This document shows, one piece after another, positions 10,301 to 19,790 of a DNA stretch of 24,000 bases (position 1 is its first letter; each line of letters opens with the position of its first letter). The translations under genes were made by a program, and so were the position numbers. Below the pieces are notes generated by a model. That model made no database searches. It had not been told where the DNA came from and was given only the letters and a program-made list of their open reading frames with translations. Source of the stretch: Terrisporobacter mayombei. Lineage in GTDB: Bacteria; Bacillota; Clostridia; Peptostreptococcales; Peptostreptococcaceae. Where the stretch lies: NCBI RefSeq assembly GCF_031202285.1, contig NZ_CP101637.1; one strand, 5' to 3'.

Positions 10301-10337
10301 ATGTAATATAAATATATATAAGTAGGAGTTGAAAAAA

Positions 10338-10793
10338 ATGTTAGAAGTAGGAGTAAAAGCGCCTGAATTTAAATTACAAGATAAGGAAGGAAATGAAGTA
10401 AGTTTATCTGATTTTAAAAATAAAAAAGTAGTATTGTATTTTTACCCAAGAGATAATACGCCTGGATGTACTAAGCAAGCATGTGCTTTCAGAGATAGTT
10501 ATGAAGAATTCACATTAAAGGATATAGTAGTAATAGGAATAAGCAAAGATAGTGTAAAATCACACAGTAATTTTGCTACAAAGCATGAACTACCGTTTAT
10601 ATTACTATCAGATCCTGAACTTGAAGCAATAAAGGCTTACGATGTATGGCAGGAGAAGAAGTTATATGGAAAAGTTAGTATGGGTGTGGTAAGAACAACA
10701 TATATTATAGACGAAAATGGAATTATAGAAAAAGTGTACAACAAAGTTAAAACTGACAAAAATGCAGGAGAAATATTAGAGTACTTAGGTTAG
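10338..10793 (+). CDS. bcp: Thiol peroxidase / peroxiredoxin Bcp
   Basis: Motifs VVLYFYPRDNTPGCTKQAC (peroxidatic Cys in the PxxxTxxC context). About 151 aa. Start placed at ATG 10338 (MLEVGVKAPEF) because the track TTG at 10329 is only 1 nt from the RBS AGGAG. Confidence 0.9.
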   Translation: MLEVGVKAPEFKLQDKEGNEVSLSDFKNKKVVLYFYPRDNTPGCTKQACAFRDSYEEFTLKDIVVIGISKDSVKSHSNFATKHELPFILLSDPELEAIKAYDVWQEKKLYGKVSMGVVRTTYIIDENGIIEKVYNKVKTDKNAGEILEYLG

Positions 10794-10974
10794 GGTAGAT
10801 ATAAGTAAACCAAATTTGCAGGTTATATATATCTAAGTGTGTCTTATAACAAGTTACTGTAGCTGTATGTATTGATTATATTATTGAGTTTTGGGAAAGT
10901 GTATATTTAAGTTAAATTAAATAAAAATATATTTTATTATCGACATGATAAAGCGAATGTAGAAATAAAAAGTA

Positions 10975-11003
10975 TTGACATTAAAAAAGAAATGATATAA
11001 TAT
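10975..11003 (+). promoter_or_regulatory. Candidate sigma-A promoter of the PTS operon
   Basis: TTGACA (10975-10980) followed by TGATATAATAT. Possible -10 readings are TATAAT at a 15-nt spacer or TAATAT at 17 nt. It sits about 130 nt upstream of the first RAT element. Confidence 0.4.
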
Positions 11004-11137
11004 CTAAATATAATAATATTAATAAACGACAAGATAACGTTTTTTACTTTATGAATTGTTAATGTTTGTTTAAAATAATTAAATATATATTAATAATTTA
11101 ATTATTCATGAAAATAAAATAATAGTAAAATCTTTTA

Positions 11138-11165
11138 GGATTGTAACTGATAAGCAGGCAAAACC
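11138..11165 (+). promoter_or_regulatory. RAT (ribonucleic antiterminator) element 1
   Basis: GGATTGTAACTGATAAGCAGGCAAAACC closely matches the BglG/SacY/LicT-family RAT consensus (GGATTGTTACTG...GCAGGCAAAACC). Its 3' end overlaps the left arm of the following terminator. Confidence 0.85.
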
Positions 11166-11230
11166 TAAATCACTAAATACAGTTTATATATTTTTGATAT
11201 ATAAATTGTATTTAGTGATTTAGGTTTTTT
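11160..11230 (+). terminator. Conditional terminator 1 (leader of the antiterminator gene)
   Basis: Long stem AAACCTAAATCACTAAATACA ... TGTATTTAGTGATTTAGGTTT, followed by TTTTT. Confidence 0.8.
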
Positions 11231-11373
11231 AATATTTAAAATAATTTGCTAATAATTATGTTAAATATTAAAAAATTAGGAGTTAATAATAATCACAACA
11301 GCTTTTATAATTTATAAAAAAGTAATAATTTTTATGTTTTATTTATATAAATATTTTTTAGGAGGAGTAACTA

Positions 11374-12210
11374 GTGTATATTAAAAAAATATTTAATAAC
11401 AATGTGGTCTTGACGATATTAGATAATAATACAGAAGCTATAATTACAGGAGCTGGGGTTGGTTTTAAAAAAAAGCCAGGGGATTTCATAGATGAAAATT
11501 TAATATCAAAGAGTTATATAATACAAGACAATCAAAGATATAGATATAATCAAATATTAAATGATACTTCTATTGAGTACTTTAGAATATCAGAGGAAAT
11601 AATAGAAAAAGCAAACGATATGTTGGAAAATTATGTTGATGATTCTATAATAATATCTTTGACAAGCCATATTAAGTTTGCAGTTGAGAGAGAACAACAG
11701 GGAATAAAACTTCCTAATTTAATTTTGAATGAAACTAAGTATTTATATAAAGAAGAGTTTAAAATAGGATTATGGGCAATTGACCATATTTATAATGTAA
11801 TAGGAATAAAACTTCCAGTTGATGAAGCAGGGTATATAGCTATTCATATAATTAATGGATTAGTAAATACTAAAGAAAATGAGGGAATTAGTATTTTAGA
11901 ATTTTCAAAAGAGGTAGTTGATATAATTGAAAATATTTATGAATGTAAATTAGATCAAGAATCAATGGGTTATATGAGACTTATGACTCATTTGAAATTT
12001 TTTGTACAACGAATTTTAAAAAAAGAGAGTTATGAAGATAGTAGAATGGATAGTATGTATAAAATAATCAATAAGAGATTTATTAACTCTAAAAAATGCA
12101 TTGATGAAATATCTAAACTAGTATTAGAAAAATTTGAATACGATATAAGTAGTTCTGAGGAATTATATTTGATGATACATATAAATAAAATAACTACCAA
12201 TGAATTTTAG
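11374..12210 (+). CDS. BglG/LicT/SacY-family PRD-containing transcription antiterminator
   Basis: CAT domain MYIKKIFNNNVVL...GAGVGFKKKPGD. Two PRDs, each with paired conserved His (SHIKFAVER / IAIHIING; THLKFFVQR / LMIHINK). GTG start preceded by AGGAGGAG. Confidence 0.9.
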   Translation: MYIKKIFNNNVVLTILDNNTEAIITGAGVGFKKKPGDFIDENLISKSYIIQDNQRYRYNQILNDTSIEYFRISEEIIEKANDMLENYVDDSIIISLTSHIKFAVEREQQGIKLPNLILNETKYLYKEEFKIGLWAIDHIYNVIGIKLPVDEAGYIAIHIINGLVNTKENEGISILEFSKEVVDIIENIYECKLDQESMGYMRLMTHLKFFVQRILKKESYEDSRMDSMYKIINKRFINSKKCIDEISKLVLEKFEYDISSSEELYLMIHINKITTNEF

Positions 12211-12237
12211 GATTGTAACTGCTAGGCAGGCAAAACC
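12210..12237 (+). promoter_or_regulatory. RAT element 2
   Basis: GGATTGTAACTGCTAGGCAGGCAAAACC, identical to RAT 1 at 26 of 28 positions. Its first base is the last base of the antiterminator stop codon. Confidence 0.85.
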
Positions 12238-12297
12238 TAAATCATTGAACTAAATATATTATATATATATTTAATTCAGTGGTTTAGGTTTTTTTGT
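12233..12297 (+). terminator. Conditional terminator 2 (upstream of the EIICB gene)
   Basis: Stem AAACCTAAATCATTGAA ... TTCAGTGGTTTAGGTTT, followed by TTTTTT. Confidence 0.8.
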
Positions 12298-12366
12298 ATC
12301 TAGAATGTTTATATGCGAACTGATTCGCTGATAATAATTTTTTAAAATTAAAAAGGAGATAAAATT

Positions 12367-13932
12367 ATGAGCAAAGGTAAAAAAACAAATTTTTGGAATT
12401 TCTTCCAAATGCTGGGGAAAACATTTATGTTCCCAATAGCATTACTTAGTATTTCGGGTATGATGTTAGGTATAGGAGCAGGATTTACAGATCCTAATAT
12501 GATTGGAATGATTCCTTTTTTAGGAAATAAATATGTTAACTTATTCCTTCAATTAATGACATCATTAGGCTTATTTGCATTTAGCAACTTGGGAGCACTA
12601 TTTGCAATGGCAATACCACTAGGGCTACTTAAGAAAGAAAAAGAAATAGGAGCATTTAGTGCTTTAGTAGGTTTTATAGCAATGCACTTAGGAACAAACT
12701 TCTATTTAAATCAAGCAGGGTTATTAGTACCAGCTGAAGATATGGCCATAAATGGTCAAGCAATGATCATGGGGATACAATCATATAATACAAGTGTTTT
12801 AGGTGGTATCATAACAGGTTTAATAATATATGCAATACATGATAAAGTTACTAATTTTAAAATGCCAGAGTCATTAGGGTTTTATAGTGGGGCTAGATTA
12901 GTTCCAATAGTATCATTATTACTAATGGGAGCTGTTGGATTAATAGTTCCCATAGTATGGCCACCAGTACTACATGGATTCCAAACAGTAGGTTCTTGGA
13001 TTTCATCGTCAGGACCGATAGGATACTTTGCATACGCAGCAGCTGAGAGAATTACAATACCATTTGGTTTAAATCACTTAGTAACATCTACATTCCGTTT
13101 CACTCCAATAGGAGGAAGTGCAGTTATAGGTGGACAAGAATATTTTGGAACATTAAATATGTTTATGGCTTATGTAGAGAACAATCAAATTATACCTTTA
13201 GATTTAGCTGGTAAGATGGAACAAGGTAAGTTGATGATACAATATGGATTAGCAGGTGCAGCATTAGCAATATATCGTACAGCAAAACCAGAAAAGAGAA
13301 AAGCTATAAAAGGCCTTTTAATTTCAGGTGTACTAACAGTTATAATTGGTGGAATAAGTGAACCGATAGAATTCTTATTCTTATTCATATCTCCTGCATT
13401 ATTTGCATTCCATACTGTAATGAATGGTCTTGGAAATATGATACTACCATATCTTGGAGTACATATGGGGTTCACTGGAGACTTAATACAGTTTTTAACA
13501 TTTGGAGTTTTAAGAGGAACAGAGACAGGCTGGCCAATGGCAGTAGCTGTAGCAGCTCTATACTTCGTAATATACTATTCTGTTTTCAAGTGGGCTATTG
13601 TTAAATTTAATATAAAAACTCCAGGTAGAGAAGATGAAGATATTGAAATAGGAAATAACGGAGGTTCAGATTTCAACGGACTATCAACTTATAAAGGACA
13701 ACAGATGATAGCTGCATTAGGTGGAAGAGATAATATAGTTTCTCTAGACAATTGTGTAACTAGACTTCGTTTAGGTTTAAAAGACGTATCTAAAATAAAT
13801 GAATCAGCAATTAAACAAGCTGGAGGAATTGCAGTAGTAAAGTTAAATGATAATGCAATTCAAGTAATAGTAGGAACAAAAGTATATGCACTTAGAAAGC
13901 AAATGGACAAAGTACTTGATGGGGCAATATAA
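12367..13932 (+). CDS. malX: PTS glucose-family EIICB component, MalX-like
   Basis: N-terminus FWNFFQMLGKTFMFPIALLSISGMMLGIGAGF is collinear with E. coli MalX (LWEFFQQLGKTFMLPVALLSFCGIMLGIG). Polytopic EIIC. C-terminal EIIB with phospho-Cys motif NCVTRLRL. RBS AAGGAGA. Confidence 0.85.
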   Translation: MSKGKKTNFWNFFQMLGKTFMFPIALLSISGMMLGIGAGFTDPNMIGMIPFLGNKYVNLFLQLMTSLGLFAFSNLGALFAMAIPLGLLKKEKEIGAFSALVGFIAMHLGTNFYLNQAGLLVPAEDMAINGQAMIMGIQSYNTSVLGGIITGLIIYAIHDKVTNFKMPESLGFYSGARLVPIVSLLLMGAVGLIVPIVWPPVLHGFQTVGSWISSSGPIGYFAYAAAERITIPFGLNHLVTSTFRFTPIGGSAVIGGQEYFGTLNMFMAYVENNQIIPLDLAGKMEQGKLMIQYGLAGAALAIYRTAKPEKRKAIKGLLISGVLTVIIGGISEPIEFLFLFISPALFAFHTVMNGLGNMILPYLGVHMGFTGDLIQFLTFGVLRGTETGWPMAVAVAALYFVIYYSVFKWAIVKFNIKTPGREDEDIEIGNNGGSDFNGLSTYKGQQMIAALGGRDNIVSLDNCVTRLRLGLKDVSKINESAIKQAGGIAVVKLNDNAIQVIVGTKVYALRKQMDKVLDGAI

Positions 13933-13975
13933 GAATCAGTAATGGCTTAAAACTTAAGTGCATGGAGGAATATAA

Positions 13976-15151
13976 ATGATTGATTTTAACAAAGAAGTAG
14001 ATAGATTGGGTACATATTGTACCCAATGGGATTATGTAGAAGATAGATTTGGTAAGAAAAATTTACTTCCATTTACTATTTCAGATATGGACTTAGAATA
14101 TCCAGATGAAGTTGCACAAGTACTTCAACAAAGGTTAGATCATAGGGTTCTGGGATATAGTAGATGGAAACATGATGACTTTAGAAATTCAATAAAAAAT
14201 TGGTACTCAAAAAGATTTAATTGTAATATTGATTCAGAGTGGATTTATTATAGTCCAAGTGTAATGTATTCAATTAGTAAATTAATTGAAATATTTAGTA
14301 AAGATGGAGATGGCGTACTTCTAAATACACCAGCATATAATGCATTCTATGATGTATTAAGAACTAATAATCGTAAGGTTATTAAATCTCCTCTAAAAAA
14401 TGAGAATGGACATTATTCAATAGATTTTGAGGATTTCAAAGAAAAATGTAAGGAATCAAAGTTATTTATACTATGCAATCCACACAATCCTACAGGTAGA
14501 GTATGGACAGAAGAAGAATTAATAAAAATGATAAATATCTGTAAAGAGTATGATGTAAAAATTATTTCTGATGATATACATATGGACATAGTGTATGGAT
14601 CGAGAATGACACCTATACTAAAGGTAGCTGAGGATTATTTAGATTCAATATATATATGTACATCACCATCAAAATCTTTTAATATACCAGCATTAACGGG
14701 CTCTTATGTAATTATACCAGAGGCTAAAACAAGGGATAGATTTGAAAATATAGTAAGATATAGAGACTTTGTAAATTCGCCTGCAATTCTATCTGTATTA
14801 GCAACAATGACTTGTTACAACGATTGTGAATACTGGATTGAAGAATTATTGAATCATCTTGAAAATAATTTGAAATACACAATTTCATATTTAGAAGAAT
14901 ATTTACCACAATTAAAATTAAAAATGCCACAAGGATGCTACTTTGCTTGGATAGATTTCTCAGAATTAAATATACCTGGAGAACAATTTCAAAAAATGTT
15001 GATTGATATTGGAGAAGTGGCGATAATGAATGGTCATGTTTATGGAGAAGAGTGCGAGTTTTACTTGAGATTAAATGTAGCATGTTCTAGAGACAAGCTT
15101 ATAGATGGATTAGATAGATTAAAAAAGACTATAGATTATATAAAATTGTAA
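13976..15151 (+). CDS. malY: MalY/PatB-type PLP-dependent cystathionine beta-lyase-like C-S lyase
   Basis: Collinear with E. coli MalY as I recall it: VDRLGTYCTQWDYVEDRFG..LLPFTISDMD, NPHNPTGRVWT, ISDDIHMD, SPSKSFNIPALTG (PLP lysine). RBS GGAGGA. Confidence 0.85.
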   Translation: MIDFNKEVDRLGTYCTQWDYVEDRFGKKNLLPFTISDMDLEYPDEVAQVLQQRLDHRVLGYSRWKHDDFRNSIKNWYSKRFNCNIDSEWIYYSPSVMYSISKLIEIFSKDGDGVLLNTPAYNAFYDVLRTNNRKVIKSPLKNENGHYSIDFEDFKEKCKESKLFILCNPHNPTGRVWTEEELIKMINICKEYDVKIISDDIHMDIVYGSRMTPILKVAEDYLDSIYICTSPSKSFNIPALTGSYVIIPEAKTRDRFENIVRYRDFVNSPAILSVLATMTCYNDCEYWIEELLNHLENNLKYTISYLEEYLPQLKLKMPQGCYFAWIDFSELNIPGEQFQKMLIDIGEVAIMNGHVYGEECEFYLRLNVACSRDKLIDGLDRLKKTIDYIKL

Positions 15152-15164
15152 GAGGAGAAGTATT

Positions 15165-15758
15165 ATGAAATATTTAGAAATAGTTATAGATGTAATGAAT
15201 AAAGAGATGCAAGCTATAAAATCATTAATTGAATATGTGAATGAAGATTATGAAATTATAATAGATGAAATATTAAACTGTAAAGGAAAAGTAATCTTTC
15301 TAGGCGTAGGTAAATCAGGGCATATAGGAAAAAAATTAGCGGCAACTTTTGCTAGTACGGGAACACCAAGTTTCTTTGTACATGGTACAGAGTCTGTTCA
15401 TGGTGACTTAGGAATGATAGAAAAAGATGATATTGTAATTTTAATTTCAAATAGTGGGAATACAATGGAAGTAGTAAACTGTATACCTTTTATAAAGAAT
15501 ATAGGAGCTAAAACAATTGCAATTACTTCAGGTAAAGAGTCAAAATTAGGTCAAGGATGTGATTATGCATTAATATATCCAAAAGAAGTAGAGTCAGATC
15601 ACTTAAATTTAGCACCTACTTCATCATCTACAATGACTTTGGTTCTGGGAGATGCAATAGCATGTACAGTATCTAAGCTTAAAAACTTTACTTCATCAGA
15701 TTTTTACAAATATCATCCAGGTGGGAGCTTAGGTGAAAAATTAAAAACAGTTAACTAG
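15165..15758 (+). CDS. Single-domain SIS protein of the KdsD/GutQ/KpsF arabinose-5-phosphate isomerase type, lacking CBS domains
   Basis: GVGKSGHIGKKLAATFASTGTPSFFVHGTESVHGDLGMI is near-identical in pattern to the KdsD/GutQ SIS core. At 197 aa the tandem CBS pair is absent. RBS GAGGAGA. Confidence 0.8.
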   Translation: MKYLEIVIDVMNKEMQAIKSLIEYVNEDYEIIIDEILNCKGKVIFLGVGKSGHIGKKLAATFASTGTPSFFVHGTESVHGDLGMIEKDDIVILISNSGNTMEVVNCIPFIKNIGAKTIAITSGKESKLGQGCDYALIYPKEVESDHLNLAPTSSSTMTLVLGDAIACTVSKLKNFTSSDFYKYHPGGSLGEKLKTVN

Positions 15759-15785
15759 GCAAGTCAAGAGAGGAGAATCAAGTAT

Positions 15786-16265
15786 ATGTTTAAGCTTTTA
15801 AAGAAAGAGAATAAAAAAATATTAAAATCACCTACAGAAGGAAAAATTATAGATTTATCAGAAGTTGAAGATAATGTTTTTTCTCAAAAAATAATGGGAG
15901 AAGGAGTTGCAATAGATACGATAGGCGACATAATATCTTCACCTATTAAAGGAAATCTAGCTTTAATAACTGAGACTAAACATGCATTTGTTATAGAATC
16001 AGAAAATGGAATGGAAGTTTTGGTTCATATAGGTATAGATACAGTTAATTTAAAAGGAGAAGGTTTTGAAATTTTAGCTGAAGCAGGAACAGAAGTTAAG
16101 GTAGGGCAACCTATTATAAAAGTAGATAGAGAATTTATTAAATCTAAAGGTTATTCTTTAGTTACTCCAGTTATAGTGACTAATCACTCTGATTATAATG
16201 TTAGTACATGCAATATTGGTGAATTAGCTCAAAGTGCAGTAACTGATATAATAAAATACAAATAG
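15786..16265 (+). CDS. PTS EIIA, glucose family (Crr-like)
   Basis: KHAFVIESENGMEVLVHIGIDTVNLKGEGF carries the two conserved His of EIIA(Glc). 159 aa. RBS AGAGGAGA. Confidence 0.9.
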   Translation: MFKLLKKENKKILKSPTEGKIIDLSEVEDNVFSQKIMGEGVAIDTIGDIISSPIKGNLALITETKHAFVIESENGMEVLVHIGIDTVNLKGEGFEILAEAGTEVKVGQPIIKVDREFIKSKGYSLVTPVIVTNHSDYNVSTCNIGELAQSAVTDIIKYK

Positions 16266-16277
16266 AAAATTATTAAG

Positions 16278-16309
16278 GGTTTCATATGAAGAAATATGAA
16301 ACCTTTATT
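16278..16309 (+). terminator. Terminator ending the PTS operon
   Basis: GGTTTCATAT (16278-16287), loop GAAGAA, ATATGAAACC (16294-16303), then TTTATT. Confidence 0.65.
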
Positions 16310-16462
16310 ACATATTGAAAATATTGCAAGCTTAAGGAGATTAATAGGCAAATTTAAAATTTTGAAGAAAATTAACGTTCAAAATAGAGCCATTAATAAA
16401 AATATAATTTATATACCGTTTTATATAAATTTATACATCATGTAAAGAGAAAGGAAATTATT

Positions 16463-17278
16463 ATGTTAGATTTAACAGTAATATCTAATAATATTAGAAA
16501 GAATATAGTAGAAATGATTTATGAAGCAAATTCAGGTCATCCAGGAGGATCATTATCAGCAGTAGAAATATTGACGTATTTATATTTCAAAGAAATGAAC
16601 GTAGAAGCCAATAATCCGAAGAAACAAGATAGAGATAGATTTGTGTTAAGTAAAGGCCATGCAGCACCTGTACTTTATGCTACATTAGCAGAAAAATGTT
16701 TTTTTGATAAAAAATTATTAAAAAGCTTAAGAAAGCTAAACTCCCCACTGCAAGGTCATCCAGATAGTAAAAAATTATCTGGTATAGATATTTCAACGGG
16801 ATCTTTAGGACAAGGTATATCTAATGCGGTAGGACTAGGGATAGGAATGAAAATGGATGCTAGTAACTCAAGAGTATATTGTTTATTAGGGGATGGAGAA
16901 GTACAAGAAGGACTTGTTTGGGAAGCCTTTATGGCAGCAGCTCACTATAAACTAGATAATTTAGTTGTAATAATAGATAACAATGGACTTCAGATAGATG
17001 GAAAAAATGAAGATGTTTTAAATATAAATAACTTAAAGAAAAAACTAGAAGCATTTAACTTTAATACTATAGAAATAGATGGACATTCATTTTTTGAAAT
17101 AGAAAAAGCATTAAATGTTGCTAGGGAAACAAAGGGGTTTCCTACTGCGATAATAGCTAAAACAGTAAAAGGAAAAGGTGTTTCATTTATGGAAAATGAA
17201 GCAGGGTGGCATGGGAATGCTCCAAGTCTAGAACAAAGAAATAAAGCATTAAAAGAGTTAGAGAATAAGGAGGTATAA
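16463..17278 (+). CDS. Transketolase, N-terminal (thiamine-diphosphate-binding) subunit
   Basis: Motifs SGHPGGSLS, SKGHAAP, LGDGEVQEG...IIDNNG (ThDP motif). 271 aa, split-type transketolase. Confidence 0.9.
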   Translation: MLDLTVISNNIRKNIVEMIYEANSGHPGGSLSAVEILTYLYFKEMNVEANNPKKQDRDRFVLSKGHAAPVLYATLAEKCFFDKKLLKSLRKLNSPLQGHPDSKKLSGIDISTGSLGQGISNAVGLGIGMKMDASNSRVYCLLGDGEVQEGLVWEAFMAAAHYKLDNLVVIIDNNGLQIDGKNEDVLNINNLKKKLEAFNFNTIEIDGHSFFEIEKALNVARETKGFPTAIIAKTVKGKGVSFMENEAGWHGNAPSLEQRNKALKELENKEV

Positions 17279-17284
17279 ATACAT

Positions 17285-18211
17285 ATGGGAATAGCAACTA
17301 GAGAAGCATACGGAAAAGCATTAGTTTCACTTGGAAGAGAGAATAAAGATATAGTTGTTTTAGATGCAGACCTTTCAAAGTCAACTAAAACAGCAGATTT
17401 TGCCAAAGAAAATAAAGATAGATTTATAAATGTAGGAATAGCAGAGCAAAATTTAATGGGGATGGCTGCAGGGCTTGCATCATATGGGAAAATACCATTT
17501 GCTAGTACATTTGCAGTATTTGCTAGCGGAAGAGCTTTTGAAATAATAAGAAATTCAATATGTTATCAAAACTTAAATGTAAATATAGCAGCAACACATG
17601 CAGGAATAACTGTAGGAGAAGACGGTGGCTCACACCAATCAGTAGAAGATATTGCAATAATGTCATCACTACCAAATATGACAGTAATAGTTCCAGCGGA
17701 TGAAACTGAGACTATGCAAGTTATAGAAAAAGCTACAAAAATAAATGGACCTGTATATATAAGACTAGGGAGGCTTGCAGCTGAAGACATATTCGATGAA
17801 ACTTATAAGTTTGAAATTGGAAAAGGAACACAAGTAAAAGATGGTAAAGATATAACAATCATTGCAACGGGGATTACTACTAATCTAGCAATGCAAGCAG
17901 CTAAAGAATTAGAAGAAGATATAAATGTAAGAGTAATACATATGCCAACTATAAAGCCGATAGATGAAGAAATAATAATAAAAGCAGGATGTGAAACTAA
18001 GGCTATAATAACAGTAGAGGAACATTCGGTAATAGGAGGACTTGGAGATAGGGTTTGTGCTGTGACGGCTGAAAAATCTCCAACAAAAGTTATAAAAATA
18101 GGAATAAAAGATATGTTTGGACAATCAGGAAAGCCAGATGAATTATTAGAGTATTATGGTTTAACGACTAAAAATATAAAGCAAGTTATAAAAGAGGAAT
18201 TTAACAAATAG
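17285..18211 (+). CDS. Transketolase, C-terminal (pyrimidine-binding/C-terminal domain) subunit
   Basis: Motifs FINVGIAEQN, GEDGGSHQ. 308 aa. Starts 6 nt after the N-terminal subunit's stop, with RBS AAGGAGG. Confidence 0.9.
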   Translation: MGIATREAYGKALVSLGRENKDIVVLDADLSKSTKTADFAKENKDRFINVGIAEQNLMGMAAGLASYGKIPFASTFAVFASGRAFEIIRNSICYQNLNVNIAATHAGITVGEDGGSHQSVEDIAIMSSLPNMTVIVPADETETMQVIEKATKINGPVYIRLGRLAAEDIFDETYKFEIGKGTQVKDGKDITIIATGITTNLAMQAAKELEEDINVRVIHMPTIKPIDEEIIIKAGCETKAIITVEEHSVIGGLGDRVCAVTAEKSPTKVIKIGIKDMFGQSGKPDELLEYYGLTTKNIKQVIKEEFNK

Positions 18212-18254
18212 TATCTATTAAAATTGCTATAAATTAAATATGAGGTATTATAAT

Positions 18255-19790
18255 ATGATTGGAAAGCTAAAAAAGCTACAAAATGGTGCGGATATTAGAG
18301 GAATTGCACTTGAAAATAATGATAAAGAAGTAAATTTGACAGCTCAAGAAATTTATTATATTGGACAAGGATTCATAAAATGGATAAAAGAAGAACAAAA
18401 TAATAGTAATCAATTGAAAATAGCAATAGGTATGGATTCGAGAATATCTGGTCCAAAATTAAAGAAGACTTTAATAGAGTCAATATCAAAAACAGGTTGT
18501 TTTGTATATGACTGTGATATTAGTACTACTCCAGCGATGTTCATGGCGACAGTATTAGAAAACTATGAGTGTGATGGTGCGGTCATGATAACAGCAAGTC
18601 ATCTACCTTATTACTATAATGGATTAAAATTTTTTACTAAAAAAGGTGGATGCGAAAACGAAGATATAAAAAGAATAATAGAGTTAGCTACGTATAAACA
18701 AACTAATGAATTTATAAGGAGTGGAAAGGTAGAAAAAGCTAATTTAATAGATGATTACTCAAATTACTTAGTTAAGTTCATAAGGAGGGATGTAAATTCA
18801 AAAACAAATTATTGTAAGCCTTTAAAAGGATTAAAAATAATAGTAGATGCAGGTAATGGATCTGGTGGATTTTTTGTAGATAAAGTACTTAAGCAATTAG
18901 GGGCATGTACAGATGGAAGTCAATTTCTTAATCCAGATGGATTATTCCCTAATCATATACCAAATCCGGAAAATAAAGAAGCTATGAAATCTATAAGAGA
19001 AGCTGTTATAAAAAATAATGCAGATTTAGGAATTATATTTGATACAGATGTAGATAGATCTGCTATTGTAGGAGATGATGGTCTAGAAATAAACAGGAAC
19101 TCATTAATAGCATTAATATCTGCAATAATTTTAGAGGATCATCCAAATAGCACAATTGTAACTGATTCAATAACATCAACAGGATTAAAAGAATTCATAG
19201 AATCTAAAGGTGGTGTGCATCATAGATTCAAAAGAGGTTATAAAAATGTAATAAATGAATCAAAAAGATTAAATTATGAAGGTATTGAATCTCACTTAGC
19301 TATAGAAACATCAGGACATGCTGCAGTTAAAGAAAATTATTTTTTAGATGATGGAGCATATTTAATATCTAAAATATTAGTGAAAATGGCACAATTTCAT
19401 GAAGAAGGAAGGAAAGTAACAGACCTGATATCTTCATTAAAAAAAGCAAAAGAAAGTAAAGAAGTTAGAATAGGAATAAATAAAAATGACTTTAAAACAT
19501 ATGGAGAAACTGTAATAAGTGAATTAGAGGCATATGTAAATGAAGTCGAAGGATGGTATTTATCAGAAAATAACTATGAAGGAATAAAAGTATTCTGTAA
19601 AGAAAATAGAGGAAATGGATGGTTCTTATTAAGGATATCACTACATGAACCATTATTACCATTAAATATAGAATCGAATGAAATAGGCGGAATAGACAAG
19701 ATAATATCTAATTTACTTCCATATTTAGGTAAATATACAGACTTAAATATAGATAAATTAAAATTAAATAAAATAGATACTAATAATTAG
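18255..19790 (+). CDS. Alpha-D-phosphohexomutase family protein (PGM/PMM-like) with variant catalytic motifs
   Basis: Active-site loop ITASHLPYYYNGLKF (SHLP rather than SHNP), Mg loop FDTDVDRSA, sugar loop IETSGH, phosphate loop RISLHEP. Start placed at ATG 18255 (MIGKLKK), preceded by TGAGGT. Confidence 0.85.
   Translation: MIGKLKKLQNGADIRGIALENNDKEVNLTAQEIYYIGQGFIKWIKEEQNNSNQLKIAIGMDSRISGPKLKKTLIESISKTGCFVYDCDISTTPAMFMATVLENYECDGAVMITASHLPYYYNGLKFFTKKGGCENEDIKRIIELATYKQTNEFIRSGKVEKANLIDDYSNYLVKFIRRDVNSKTNYCKPLKGLKIIVDAGNGSGGFFVDKVLKQLGACTDGSQFLNPDGLFPNHIPNPENKEAMKSIREAVIKNNADLGIIFDTDVDRSAIVGDDGLEINRNSLIALISAIILEDHPNSTIVTDSITSTGLKEFIESKGGVHHRFKRGYKNVINESKRLNYEGIESHLAIETSGHAAVKENYFLDDGAYLISKILVKMAQFHEEGRKVTDLISSLKKAKESKEVRIGINKNDFKTYGETVISELEAYVNEVEGWYLSENNYEGIKVFCKENRGNGWFLLRISLHEPLLPLNIESNEIGGIDKIISNLLPYLGKYTDLNIDKLKLNKIDTNN

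What the first reader, a model, noticed from the sequence alone, without database searches (positions are those of the whole stretch)
10975..16309. PTS operon for an unidentified carbohydrate: antiterminator + MalX-like EIICB + MalY-like lyase + CBS-less A5P-isomerase-type SIS + EIIA, with no hydrolase
Seen in sequence:
- Five tightly spaced co-directional genes (11374-16265) are bounded by a promoter candidate and a terminator, and gated by two RAT/terminator units.
- The content is atypical for a glucoside or maltose PTS operon. There is no phospho-glycosidase or other hydrolase. Instead there is a PLP C-S lyase and a KdsD/GutQ-type sugar-phosphate isomerase.

From memory:
- A PTS + beta-cystathionase-like + CBS-less arabinose-5-phosphate isomerase combination was reported for the E. 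coli CFT073 PAI-metV genes c3405-c3410. That operon is needed for urinary-tract fitness and its substrate is unknown.
- A close homologue of that isomerase was later characterised from Clostridium tetani, which lacks LPS and capsule pathways and so has no known use for A5P.

Inference:
- This window appears to hold the complete Gram-positive version of that unsolved system.
- The imported sugar-phosphate may be converted through an arabinose-5-P or ribulose-5-P node into the pentose-phosphate pathway.
Basis: partly seen in the sequence, partly recalled or inferred. Interest (0 to 1): 0.75.

Follow-up and report, generated by a model that had tools for sequence, protein, structure and literature searches.

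The report
Unsolved sugar-uptake operon, Clostridial copy
This is a real five-gene sugar-import operon of the gut anaerobe Terrisporobacter mayombei. It is the counterpart of a known gene cluster in Clostridioides difficile and uropathogenic E. coli whose sugar has not been identified, so it is a further copy of a known puzzle rather than a new system.

Summary
**Observation: confirmed.** Five co-directional genes lie at 11374-16265. They encode a LicT/BglG antiterminator, an EIICB, a MalY/PatB PLP C-S lyase, a CBS-less KdsD-type SIS protein and an EIIA-Glc. Two RAT-plus-terminator gates and a 3' hairpin are present. No hydrolase is present.

**Interpretation: supported.**
- The window is Terrisporobacter mayombei.
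- E. coli CFT073 carries the same four genes in the same order: PRD-EIIC-MalY-SIS. Identities are 34, 64, 49 and 51%.
- C. difficile carries all five genes (CD3027-CD3031) at 57-80% identity.
- Every intact copy among 69 metagenome loci keeps the four-gene core. These loci fall into about nine lineages.
- The SIS protein keeps all five KdsD residues probed by mutagenesis. It clusters with c3406 (PDB 5UQI) in a CBS-less clade with 93% bootstrap support.

**New context.**
- Other members of that clade sit beside ribokinase-type kinases in clusters that look like D-arabinose or Kdo catabolism. This points to a catabolic A5P-to-Ru5P role.
- Transketolase follows the cassette in two lineages.
- An EIICB-MalY pair without SIS recurs in Enterobacteria and Fusobacteria under unrelated regulators. 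MalY therefore probably acts on the transported product.

**Still open.** No held paper named the substrate. This is a new member of a known, annotated but functionally unsolved cassette.

The parts
10975..11003 (+). Candidate sigma-A promoter (TTGACA-17-TAATAT, or TGaTATAAT read as an extended -10)
   Evidence: Found by the pattern scan and read directly in the sequence. Such matches are not enriched over shuffles, so the support is positional only.
11138..11230 (+). RAT 1 overlapping an intrinsic terminator, in the leader of the antiterminator gene (autoregulation)
   Evidence: The RAT matches the LicT/SacY-type consensus. The hairpin has about 33 pairs, folds at -41.6 kcal/mol (z = -9.2) and is followed by a T run.
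11374..12210 (+). BglG/LicT-family transcription antiterminator (278 aa)
   Evidence: CAT_RBD (E 8e-20) and two PRD stretches (E 1e-30). The LicT model scores 271 bits, below its cut-off of 300.
12210..12297 (+). RAT 2 overlapping an intrinsic terminator, gating the structural genes
   Evidence: -32.2 kcal/mol, z = -6.7. There is a weak Rfam bglG-cis-reg match of 28 bits, below its gathering score.
12367..13932 (+). PTS EIICB of the c3408-type subfamily of the Glc/MalX family (521 aa)
   Evidence: Identity is 64-80% to the C. difficile, KNHs214 and CFT073 cassette EIICBs, and 42-43% to K-12 MalX. The EIIB Cys motif NCVTRLR is present.
13976..15151 (+). MalY/PatB-family PLP-dependent enzyme (C-S beta-lyase type, 391 aa)
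   Evidence: TIGR04350 scores 356 bits against a cut-off of 340. The best PDB match is E. coli MalY 1D2F, E 3e-102. The PLP Lys in SPSKSFN is invariant, as are NPHNPTG, D199, H202 and R365.
15165..15758 (+). CBS-less KdsD/c3406-type SIS protein, predicted D-arabinose-5-phosphate isomerase (197 aa)
   Evidence: The best PDB match is 5UQI, which is c3406 (E 5e-61). K59, H88, E111, E152 and H193 (KdsD numbering) are invariant. The CBS-less clade has 93% bootstrap support.
15786..16265 (+). EIIA-Glc-type PTS component (159 aa)
   Evidence: PF00358 E 4e-48; TIGR00830 scores 142 bits against a cut-off of 97.5.
16274..16310 (+). 3' hairpin, probable weak operon terminator
   Evidence: -16.6 kcal/mol, z = -5.4. 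The U tract is poor, and the pattern scan did not call it.
16463..19790 (+). Downstream split transketolase (16463-17278, 17285-18211) and a PGM/PMM-family phosphomutase (18240-19790). Possibly linked in function, but not part of the conserved core.
   Evidence: Split transketolase also follows the cassette in metagenome locus L096. It is absent next to the C. difficile, E. coli and other copies.

Best explanation
This is a substrate-inducible PTS catabolic operon of Terrisporobacter mayombei. It is the orthologue of C. difficile CD3027-CD3031 and of the E. coli CFT073 PAI-metV cassette. That cassette holds the genes for PRD, EIIC, MalY/PatB, the CBS-less API c3406 and a PGDH-like enzyme.

**Shown**
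- The five genes and their families.
- The two RAT/terminator gates typical of LicT-type control. The first gate makes the antiterminator autoregulated.
- The strict conservation of the antiterminator-EIICB-MalY-SIS core across Firmicutes and Enterobacteria.
- The intact PLP site of MalY and the intact KdsD-type residues of the SIS protein.

**Inferred**
1. When the unidentified sugar or sugar derivative is present, EIICB stops phosphorylating the antiterminator. The antiterminator then binds the RATs and allows read-through.
2. EIIA and EIICB import the compound and phosphorylate it on its terminal primary hydroxyl.
3. The MalY-type PLP enzyme takes the place that a phospho-glycosidase holds in ordinary glycoside PTS operons. 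It processes the phosphorylated product, probably by beta-elimination that releases pyruvate and ammonia.
4. The SIS enzyme converts the resulting arabinose-5-phosphate-type sugar phosphate to ribulose-5-phosphate.
5. Ribulose-5-phosphate enters the pentose-phosphate pathway through the adjacent transketolase.

The substrate remains unknown.
For: **Identity of the locus**
- Gene content and domains.
- RATs overlapping strong terminator hairpins.
- Source organism.

**Conservation**
- Same order and 34-64% identity in CFT073.
- All five genes at 57-80% identity in C. difficile.
- In 69 metagenome loci and 4 reference loci, every intact copy has BglG-EIICB-MalY-SIS, across about nine lineages.
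- The EIICB forms a discrete subfamily at 61% identity or more, followed by a gap to 51% or less.

**SIS protein**
- 51% identical to c3406 (PDB 5UQI).
- Catalytic-type residues invariant.
- CBS-less clade supported at 93% bootstrap.
- In the 14 other CBS-less loci examined, 13 have a ribokinase-family kinase immediately downstream of the SIS gene. In the 14th (L013) the contig ends within the SIS gene. These loci also carry FucU/RbsD mutarotase, LacI and GH172 genes, or an IclR-TRAP-DHDPS-lyase-YhcH set. This fits D-arabinose to A5P to Ru5P.

**Link to the pentose-phosphate pathway**
- Transketolase lies directly downstream in the window lineage and, independently, in L096.

**MalY as an enzyme acting on the transported product**
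- The PLP lysine and the carboxylate-binding arginine are invariant.
- The EIICB-MalY pair recurs under unrelated regulators: MalI, an HTH protein, a PRD activator and the BglG antiterminator. This argues for an enzymatic role of MalY rather than a regulatory one.
Against: - No substrate is known, and nothing here identifies one.
- No established reaction of a MalY-type lyase yields arabinose-5-phosphate.
- EIICB-MalY modules without SIS work in other taxa, so the isomerase may serve a side reaction or a regulatory purpose.
- GutQ is a precedent for an API inside a PTS operon (srl) with no clear catabolic role (plus own knowledge).
- C. difficile MalY has cysteine desulfhydrase activity in vitro and is discussed as a sulfur-metabolism enzyme (PMC6143707).
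- Transketolase adjacency is seen in only 2 of about 9 lineages.
- The tree is a neighbour-joining tree on 197 columns, and the PTS-type SIS proteins are not monophyletic within the CBS-less clade.
Confidence: 0.6

Rival explanations
1. It is an ordinary glucose/maltose PTS of the MalX type. MalY and the SIS protein are passengers with housekeeping or moonlighting roles. MalY would serve cysteine/methionine metabolism, and the SIS protein an unrelated sugar-phosphate isomerisation.
For: - Family models name the EIICB as maltose/glucose-specific.
- Public annotation calls the E. coli cluster 'PTS system, maltose/glucose specific' (PMC2831201).
- The C. difficile operon rises together with ptsG in biofilm, and MalY desulfurates cysteine in vitro (PMC6143707).
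- From own knowledge: K-12 MalX can carry glucose and maltose.
Against: - The four-gene core is kept in every intact copy across about nine lineages and two phyla.
- Adjacent genes overlap by about 4 nt in several lineages.
- The EIICB is a separate subfamily, about 43% identical to MalX, and scores below the malX cut-off.
- The regulator and the RATs are LicT/SacY-like, not GlcT-like.
Confidence: 0.15
2. The SIS enzyme makes arabinose-5-phosphate from ribulose-5-phosphate as a signal or cofactor for expression or activity of the system, as proposed for GutQ in the sorbitol PTS operon. It would not consume A5P made from the substrate.
For: - GutQ, an API, sits in the srl PTS operon of K-12.
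- No known MalY chemistry yields A5P.
- EIICB-MalY modules function without SIS in other taxa.
Against: - The nearest CBS-less relatives are embedded in clusters with a dedicated ribokinase-type kinase and sugar-releasing enzymes. There a catabolic A5P-to-Ru5P direction is the simple reading.
- Transketolase is adjacent in two lineages.
- The CBS regulatory domains are absent.
Confidence: 0.1
3. The substrate is an amino sugar acid such as a 2-amino-2-deoxy-aldonate. After PTS phosphorylation, the MalY-type enzyme deaminates or transaminates it to a 2-keto(-3-deoxy) sugar acid phosphate. This would parallel the Salmonella D-glucosaminate PTS with its PLP ammonia-lyase. In E. coli, the PGDH-like 2-hydroxyacid dehydrogenase would then act on the keto acid.
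For: - MalY keeps the alpha-carboxylate-binding Arg and the PLP Lys.
- The E. coli cassette adds a D-2-hydroxyacid dehydrogenase.
- The precedent of a PTS plus a PLP lyase (the dga operon) comes from own knowledge.
Against: - Glc-family EIICs are not known to carry acyclic aldonates.
- This route does not explain the invariable presence of the isomerase.
- The dehydrogenase is confined to the enterobacterial lineage.
Confidence: 0.05

Closest known systems
E. coli CFT073 PAI-metV cluster c3405-c3410 (PRD antiterminator, EIIC(B), MalY/PatB, CBS-less API c3406 = PDB 5UQI, PGDH-like dehydrogenase)
   Same: The antiterminator-EIICB-MalY-SIS genes are in the same order. Identities are 34, 64, 49 and 51%. 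The SIS proteins lie in one clade. Neither locus encodes a hydrolase. No held paper identifies the substrate.
   Different: - The E. coli copy has no EIIA gene of its own and ends with a D-2-hydroxyacid dehydrogenase.
- The window copy has an EIIA and is followed by transketolase and a phosphomutase.
- The E. coli cassette has 40.7% GC inside 52% GC flanks, so it looks imported. The window copy matches its genome's GC.
- The E. coli cassette is present in 1690 of 5426 complete E. coli genomes.
Clostridioides difficile CD3027-CD3031 (CD630_30270-30310; 'malX', 'malY', putative phosphosugar isomerase, EIIA, antiterminator)
   Same: All five genes are present in the same order at 57-80% identity. 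RAT sequences are nearly identical. The genes are co-transcribed and co-regulated (PMC4026244, bioRxiv 10.1101/2020.09.14.297382).
   Different: - C. difficile has three tandem RATs between the antiterminator and EIICB, and none was found upstream of the antiterminator.
- No transketolase or mutase gene is nearby.
- The operon lies in a strain-variable region (PMC10880999).
E. coli K-12 malI-malX-malY
   Same: A Glc-family EIICB is followed directly by a MalY PLP C-S lyase, with no hydrolase. As far as I know, its natural substrate is also unidentified.
   Different: - Identity is only 42-43% for both proteins.
- It is regulated by a LacI-type repressor.
- It has no SIS isomerase and no EIIA.
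GutQ in the E. coli sorbitol (srl/gut) PTS operon; KdsD; KpsF
   Same: All are arabinose-5-phosphate isomerases of the same SIS family, with catalytic-type residues conserved. GutQ is also encoded within a PTS operon.
   Different: These proteins carry a C-terminal CBS pair (about 320-330 aa). They form a separate clade from the CBS-less proteins. KdsD and KpsF serve Kdo synthesis, which a Gram-positive organism lacks.
MurP/MurQ (N-acetylmuramic acid PTS plus SIS-domain etherase)
   Same: A Glc-family EIIBC is paired with a SIS-domain enzyme that processes the phosphorylated product without a glycosidase (comparison from own knowledge).
   Different: The window SIS matches MurQ models only weakly, at E 6e-11 against 1.5e-61 for KdsD. 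There is no PLP enzyme in the mur system.

Membership tests
c3405-c3409 / CD3027-CD3031 PTS-MalY-API cassette | Gene order antiterminator - EIICB - MalY/PatB - CBS-less SIS on one strand | tested here: met
   Window, CFT073, C. difficile and 69 metagenome loci.
c3405-c3409 / CD3027-CD3031 PTS-MalY-API cassette | EIICB belongs to the discrete c3408-type subfamily (61% identity or more within it, 51% or less to other MalX/MalT proteins) | tested here: met
   64% to CFT073, 80% to C. difficile, 42-43% to K-12 MalX.
c3405-c3409 / CD3027-CD3031 PTS-MalY-API cassette | Accessory genes (PGDH-like dehydrogenase in E. coli; EIIA in Firmicutes) | tested here: inconclusive
   EIIA is present, as in C. 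difficile. The PGDH-like gene is absent. Accessory genes vary by lineage, so they do not define the cassette.
Arabinose-5-phosphate isomerase (KdsD/GutQ/KpsF/c3406) | SIS domain with the KdsD residues K59, H88, E111, E152 and H193 | tested here: met
   All five are invariant in alignment A4. SIS Pfam E 1.4e-30.
Arabinose-5-phosphate isomerase (KdsD/GutQ/KpsF/c3406) | Groups with the experimentally characterised CBS-less API c3406 rather than with MurQ, GmhA or PHI | tested here: met
   - NJ tree: the CBS-less clade including c3406 has 93% bootstrap support.
- NCBIfam E-values: KdsD 1.5e-61, against HxlB 1.5e-14, MurQ 6e-11 and GmhA 1e-5.
- MurQ, GmhA and PHI were not placed in the tree.
Arabinose-5-phosphate isomerase (KdsD/GutQ/KpsF/c3406) | Curated model score above cut-off | tested here: not met
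   TIGR00393 kpsF scores 200.0 bits against a cut-off of 203.7. The full-length KdsD and GutQ models score far below their cut-offs because the CBS half is missing.
Arabinose-5-phosphate isomerase (KdsD/GutQ/KpsF/c3406) | A5P/Ru5P isomerase activity | not testable with these tools
   This needs an enzyme assay or complementation of a kdsD gutQ mutant.
MalY/PatB C-S beta-lyase | Family model above cut-off, and the PLP-binding lysine and carboxylate-binding arginine present | tested here: met
   TIGR04350 scores 356.4 bits against a cut-off of 340. K233, R365, D199 and N171 are invariant. Best PDB match is 1D2F MalY.
MalY/PatB C-S beta-lyase | Beta-C-S lyase activity on cystathionine or cysteine conjugates as the physiological reaction | not testable with these tools
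   Only in-vitro cysteine desulfhydrase activity of the C. difficile orthologue is reported (PMC6143707).
BglG/SacY/LicT antiterminator with RAT | CAT RNA-binding domain plus two PRDs | tested here: met
   CAT_RBD at residues 1-54; PRD in two stretches.
BglG/SacY/LicT antiterminator with RAT | RAT sequence that overlaps the 5' arm of an intrinsic terminator | tested here: met
   Two copies. The same RAT occurs in C. difficile and in L082.
E. coli MalX (maltose/glucose EIICB) equivalog | Score above the curated TIGR02004 / PRK10110 cut-offs | tested here: not met
   562 bits against 632, and 558 against 665. Identity to K-12 MalX is 42-43%.

The most novel reading that the evidence does not exclude
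The cassette would be a hydrolase-free glycoside pathway. The transported compound would be a sugar joined through O or S to the beta-carbon of serine or cysteine (a beta-substituted alanine).
1. After PTS phosphorylation, the MalY-type PLP lyase replaces the usual phospho-glycosidase.
2. By beta-elimination it releases pyruvate, ammonia and the free sugar phosphate.
3. In the SIS-bearing cassette, that sugar phosphate is D-arabinose-5-phosphate, which the CBS-less isomerase feeds into the pentose-phosphate pathway.
4. In the SIS-less EIICB-MalY modules (K-12 malXY, Fusobacterium), the product would be a hexose-6-phosphate that needs no further enzyme.

This reading would also give K-12 MalX/MalY a physiological role.
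Probability: 0.12. Interest if true: 0.8.

Novelty: new member of a known kind. Interest (0 to 1): 0.45.

Why it matters
**Where the cassette occurs**
- It is carried by C. difficile.
- It is carried by 31% of complete E. coli genomes. These include UPEC CFT073 and 536, an O25b:H4 strain and Nissle 1917.
- From memory, it has been linked to urinary-tract fitness. I could not verify that in the held papers.
- None of the held papers I searched names a substrate.

**What the comparative picture adds**
- An invariant four-gene core.
- A probable low-GC origin of the E. coli copy.
- A catabolic context for the CBS-less isomerase clade.
- An EIICB-MalY pair that is independent of the type of regulator.

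**What this makes testable**
- The hypotheses narrow to a few: a D-arabinose-type sugar tail, and a PLP lyase acting on the phosphorylated product.
- It suggests tractable hosts for testing: C. difficile 630, E. coli Nissle and T. mayombei.

The window itself adds one more orthologue and an adjacent transketolase. It does not add a new kind of system.

Tried and rejected
**Literature**
No held paper assigns a substrate.
- One search was wasted by a loose term setting.
- The Cech 2017 and Mosberg 2011 papers are not held. The C. tetani claim and the biochemical data on c3406 therefore rest on memory plus a citation.

**Sequence checks that found nothing**
- A cre (CcpA) site near the promoter was looked for and not found.
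- The Rfam scan gave only a sub-threshold bglG-cis-reg hit.
- The exact-protein look-up for the window SIS failed in one index but succeeded in another.
- The 231-aa ORF between SIS and transketolase in L096 has no family or PDB match and looks like a membrane protein.

**Substrates considered**
- I considered glucosaminate, Amadori compounds, S-ribosylhomocysteine, AI-2 and Kdo taken up through the PTS.
- None explains MalY plus API together on established chemistry.
- They are kept only as low-probability ideas.

**Scope of the conserved unit**
- The PGM/PMM-like mutase and the transketolase are not in the conserved core. They are absent next to the C. difficile and E. coli copies.

**Tree**
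- A first bootstrap run timed out and was redone with a faster neighbour-joining implementation.

Full report
**1. What is in the window**

The region 10975-16309 holds five co-directional ORFs on the + strand with short gaps.

| Coordinates | Length | Assignment | Evidence |
|---|---|---|---|
| 11374-12210 | 278 aa | BglG/LicT antiterminator | CAT_RBD plus two PRD stretches; best model LicT |
| 12367-13932 | 521 aa | EIICB | PTS_EIIC plus PTS_EIIB; malX model 562 bits, cut-off 632 |
| 13976-15151 | 391 aa | MalY/PatB C-S lyase | PatB-family model 356 bits, cut-off 340 |
| 15165-15758 | 197 aa | CBS-less SIS protein | SIS domain only; best models KdsD, KpsF, GutQ |
| 15786-16265 | 159 aa | EIIA-Glc | PF00358 |

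- Two RAT sequences lie at 11138 and 12210 (GGATTGTAACTG...CAGGCAAAACC).
- Each overlaps the 5' arm of a long hairpin followed by a T run.
- The two leaders fold at -41.6 and -32.2 kcal/mol, with z-scores of -9.2 and -6.7.
- A third hairpin follows EIIA (-16.6 kcal/mol, z = -5.4), but its U tract is poor.
- The promoter candidate at 10975-11003 is a good match. Such matches are not enriched in this 27% GC DNA.
- No glycoside hydrolase is encoded in or next to the operon.

**2. Source organism**

The MalY, SIS and EIICB proteins are identical to Terrisporobacter mayombei proteins WMT83070, WMT83071 and WMT83069. This species belongs to the Peptostreptococcaceae, the family of C. difficile. NCBI already annotates these genes with generic family names.

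**3. Comparison with the E. coli and C. difficile loci**

- In E. coli CFT073 (NC_004431.1 3249590-3254819), RefSeq annotates five genes on one strand. They are a PRD protein, a PTS EIIC, a MalY/PatB protein, a 198-aa KpsF/GutQ isomerase and a phosphoglycerate-dehydrogenase-like protein.
- tblastn gives 34, 64, 49 and 51% identity to the window's first four proteins.
- The 198-aa protein is 100% identical to PDB 5UQI/5VHU. That entry is also the best PDB match of the window SIS protein.
- PMC2831201 places c3405-c3410 in PAI-CFT073-metV and labels it a maltose/glucose PTS.
- C. difficile genomes carry all five genes in the window's order at 57-80% identity.
- These are CD3027-CD3031 (PMC4026244). 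They behave as one transcription unit (bioRxiv 10.1101/2020.09.14.297382).
- They lie in a strain-variable region (PMC10880999).
- Their MalY is reported to desulfurate cysteine in vitro (PMC6143707).
- Clostridium sp. KNHs214 has the same core with EIIA divergently upstream.

**4. How conserved the cassette is**

- The cassette EIICBs form a tight group. They are 64-80% identical to one another and 42-43% identical to K-12 MalX.
- In a 5.8-billion-protein collection, full-length homologues drop from 61% or more straight to 51% or less. The first group has about 30 full-length clusters: C. difficile, Longicatena, Clostridium KNHs214, E. coli, Atlantibacter and Enterobacter.
- A metagenome scan with the EIICB alignment returned 69 loci.
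- Wherever the contig reaches far enough and the copy is intact, the order antiterminator-EIICB-MalY-SIS is present.
- The only exceptions are fragmented or deleted copies.
- At 90% EIICB identity there are about nine lineages.
- Accessory genes differ between lineages:

| Lineage | Accessory genes |
|---|---|
| Enterobacteria | PGDH-like dehydrogenase |
| C. difficile and T. mayombei | EIIA downstream |
| Other Firmicutes | EIIA upstream |
| Two gut Firmicute lineages | HAD phosphatase downstream |
| T. mayombei and, independently, locus L096 | Split transketolase downstream |

- The E. coli cassette has 40.7% GC between 52% GC flanks. The T. mayombei copy matches its genome. The enterobacterial copy therefore looks imported from a low-GC donor.
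- The E. coli cassette is present in 1690 of 5426 complete E. coli genomes.

**5. The isomerase**

- All five KdsD residues that have been probed by mutagenesis are invariant in the window protein, c3406 and the other CBS-less proteins. They are K59, H88, E111, E152 and H193.
- All of these proteins end right after the SIS domain.
- A neighbour-joining tree of 36 SIS domains puts all CBS-less proteins, including c3406 and the window protein, in one clade with 93% bootstrap support. That clade is separate from the CBS-bearing KdsD and GutQ proteins.
- Within the clade, the PTS-linked proteins are not monophyletic.
- Of the fourteen other CBS-less loci examined, thirteen have the SIS gene immediately followed by a ribokinase-family kinase. 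In the fourteenth (L013) the contig ends within the SIS gene.
- The ribokinase model TIGR02152 scores 337-354 bits against a cut-off of 300.
- The neighbours fall into two patterns. One has a FucU/RbsD-type mutarotase, a LacI regulator, an ABC transporter and a GH172 enzyme. The other has IclR, a TRAP transporter, a DHDPS-family lyase and sometimes a YhcH-type anomerase.
- From own knowledge, GH172 includes alpha-D-arabinofuranosidases, and Kdo aldolase yields D-arabinose plus pyruvate.
- I therefore read these clusters as D-arabinose and Kdo-type catabolism, in which the kinase makes A5P and the SIS enzyme converts it to Ru5P. This is inference, not demonstration.
- By analogy, in the PTS cassette the PTS replaces the transporter plus kinase, and the isomerase again works in the catabolic direction. 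The adjacent transketolase genes fit this reading.

**6. The PLP enzyme**

- The window protein's best solved relative is E. coli MalY.
- The PLP lysine, the NPxNPTG motif, D199, H202 and the carboxylate-binding arginine are invariant across cassette MalYs and K-12 MalY. It is therefore very probably an active enzyme acting on an alpha-amino acid.
- An EIICB-MalY pair without SIS occurs in several taxa under different regulators:

| Taxon | Regulator | Note |
|---|---|---|
| E. coli K-12 and Klebsiella | MalI | |
| Cetobacterium | HTH proteins encoded next to the pair | |
| Fusobacterium | PRD-type activator | MalY 60% identical to the window's |

- The regulators differ while the pair persists. 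A purely regulatory role for MalY, such as its binding to MalT in K-12, therefore cannot explain the pairing.
- The simplest reading is that MalY acts on what the EIICB delivers. It would take the place that a phospho-glycosidase holds in other glycoside PTS operons.
- Which bond it breaks is unknown.

**7. Mechanism proposed, and its weak points**

- Regulation by PTS-controlled antitermination is well supported by the anatomy.
- Import and phosphorylation by EIIA and EIICB follow from the families.
- The order 'MalY first, then isomerase, then pentose-phosphate pathway' is inferred.
- No established MalY reaction gives A5P.
- The isomerase could instead make A5P as a signal, as suggested for GutQ.
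- The system could also be a plain glucose/maltose PTS with passengers.
- I rate these rivals lower because of the strict synteny, the discrete EIICB subfamily and the catabolic contexts of the isomerase clade.

**8. Novelty and verdict**

This is the T. mayombei orthologue of a cassette already known and annotated in C. difficile and UPEC.
- No substrate assignment appeared in any held paper I searched.
- It is a new member of a known kind.
- The interest lies in the unsolved function and in the comparative clues gathered here, not in this particular copy.

Noticed in passing
L086 2114-8506; L087 1772-8962; L088 2241-8517; L004 5111-11500: A recurring cluster in Clostridia has the order IclR, TRAP DctPQM, DHDPS-family lyase, (FucU-like mutarotase), CBS-less SIS, ribokinase-family kinase, (YhcH-type anomerase). 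It reads like a catabolic route for Kdo or a related 3-deoxy-ulosonic acid: lyase gives D-arabinose plus pyruvate, kinase gives A5P, isomerase gives Ru5P. I did not search the literature for this pathway, so I cannot say whether it has been described.
   Followed up: partly
L089 5958-12840; L009, L010 and L013 (GH172 at about 4300, 4270 and 916): In Bacilli and unnamed bacteria, LacI, CBS-less SIS and a ribokinase-type kinase occur with an ABC transporter and a GH172 enzyme. This suggests use of D-arabinofuranosides through A5P.
   Followed up: partly
L002 6900-7134: C. difficile has three tandem, nearly identical RAT sequences about 100 nt apart between the antiterminator gene and EIICB. The window has one RAT there and one upstream of the antiterminator.
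   Followed up: no
L081 19591-24820 (E. coli CFT073): The E. coli cassette has 40.7% GC against about 52% in its flanks, and it abuts a type VI secretion cluster. It occurs in 1690 of 5426 complete E. coli genomes. Variants include an IS1 insertion in the MalY gene (hit H7) and a deletion that joins a truncated EIICB to the dehydrogenase gene (L158).
   Followed up: partly
L096 5251-17209: A 31% GC metagenome copy of the cassette is followed directly by a 231-aa membrane ORF with no family match and then by split transketolase. It is flanked by RES-domain, M78-peptidase and IS200 transposase genes, which suggests a mobile context.
   Followed up: partly
L164/L165 5027-9182; L162 6001-10034: Fusobacterium and Cetobacterium carry an EIICB-MalY-like pair without SIS, next to a PRD-type activator or HTH proteins. 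The Fusobacterium MalY is 60% identical to the window's, closer than the E. coli cassette MalY is. Its EIICB is only 46% identical.
   Followed up: partly
window 16463-19790: Split transketolase (N and C halves as separate genes) and a 516-aa PGM/PMM-family mutase lie immediately downstream, with gaps of 6 and 28 nt. A 58%-identical mutase lies about 3 kb from the cassette in Clostridium sp. KNHs214 (L084 1-1247, opposite strand). I could not tell whether this is functional linkage or leftover synteny.
   Followed up: partly
window 10794-11373: A 580-nt, very AT-rich intergenic region (about 20% GC) precedes the operon, downstream of a Bcp-type thiol peroxidase gene (10329-10793). In C. difficile the orthologous operon lies in a variable region next to a thioredoxin gene (PMC10880999).
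   Followed up: no
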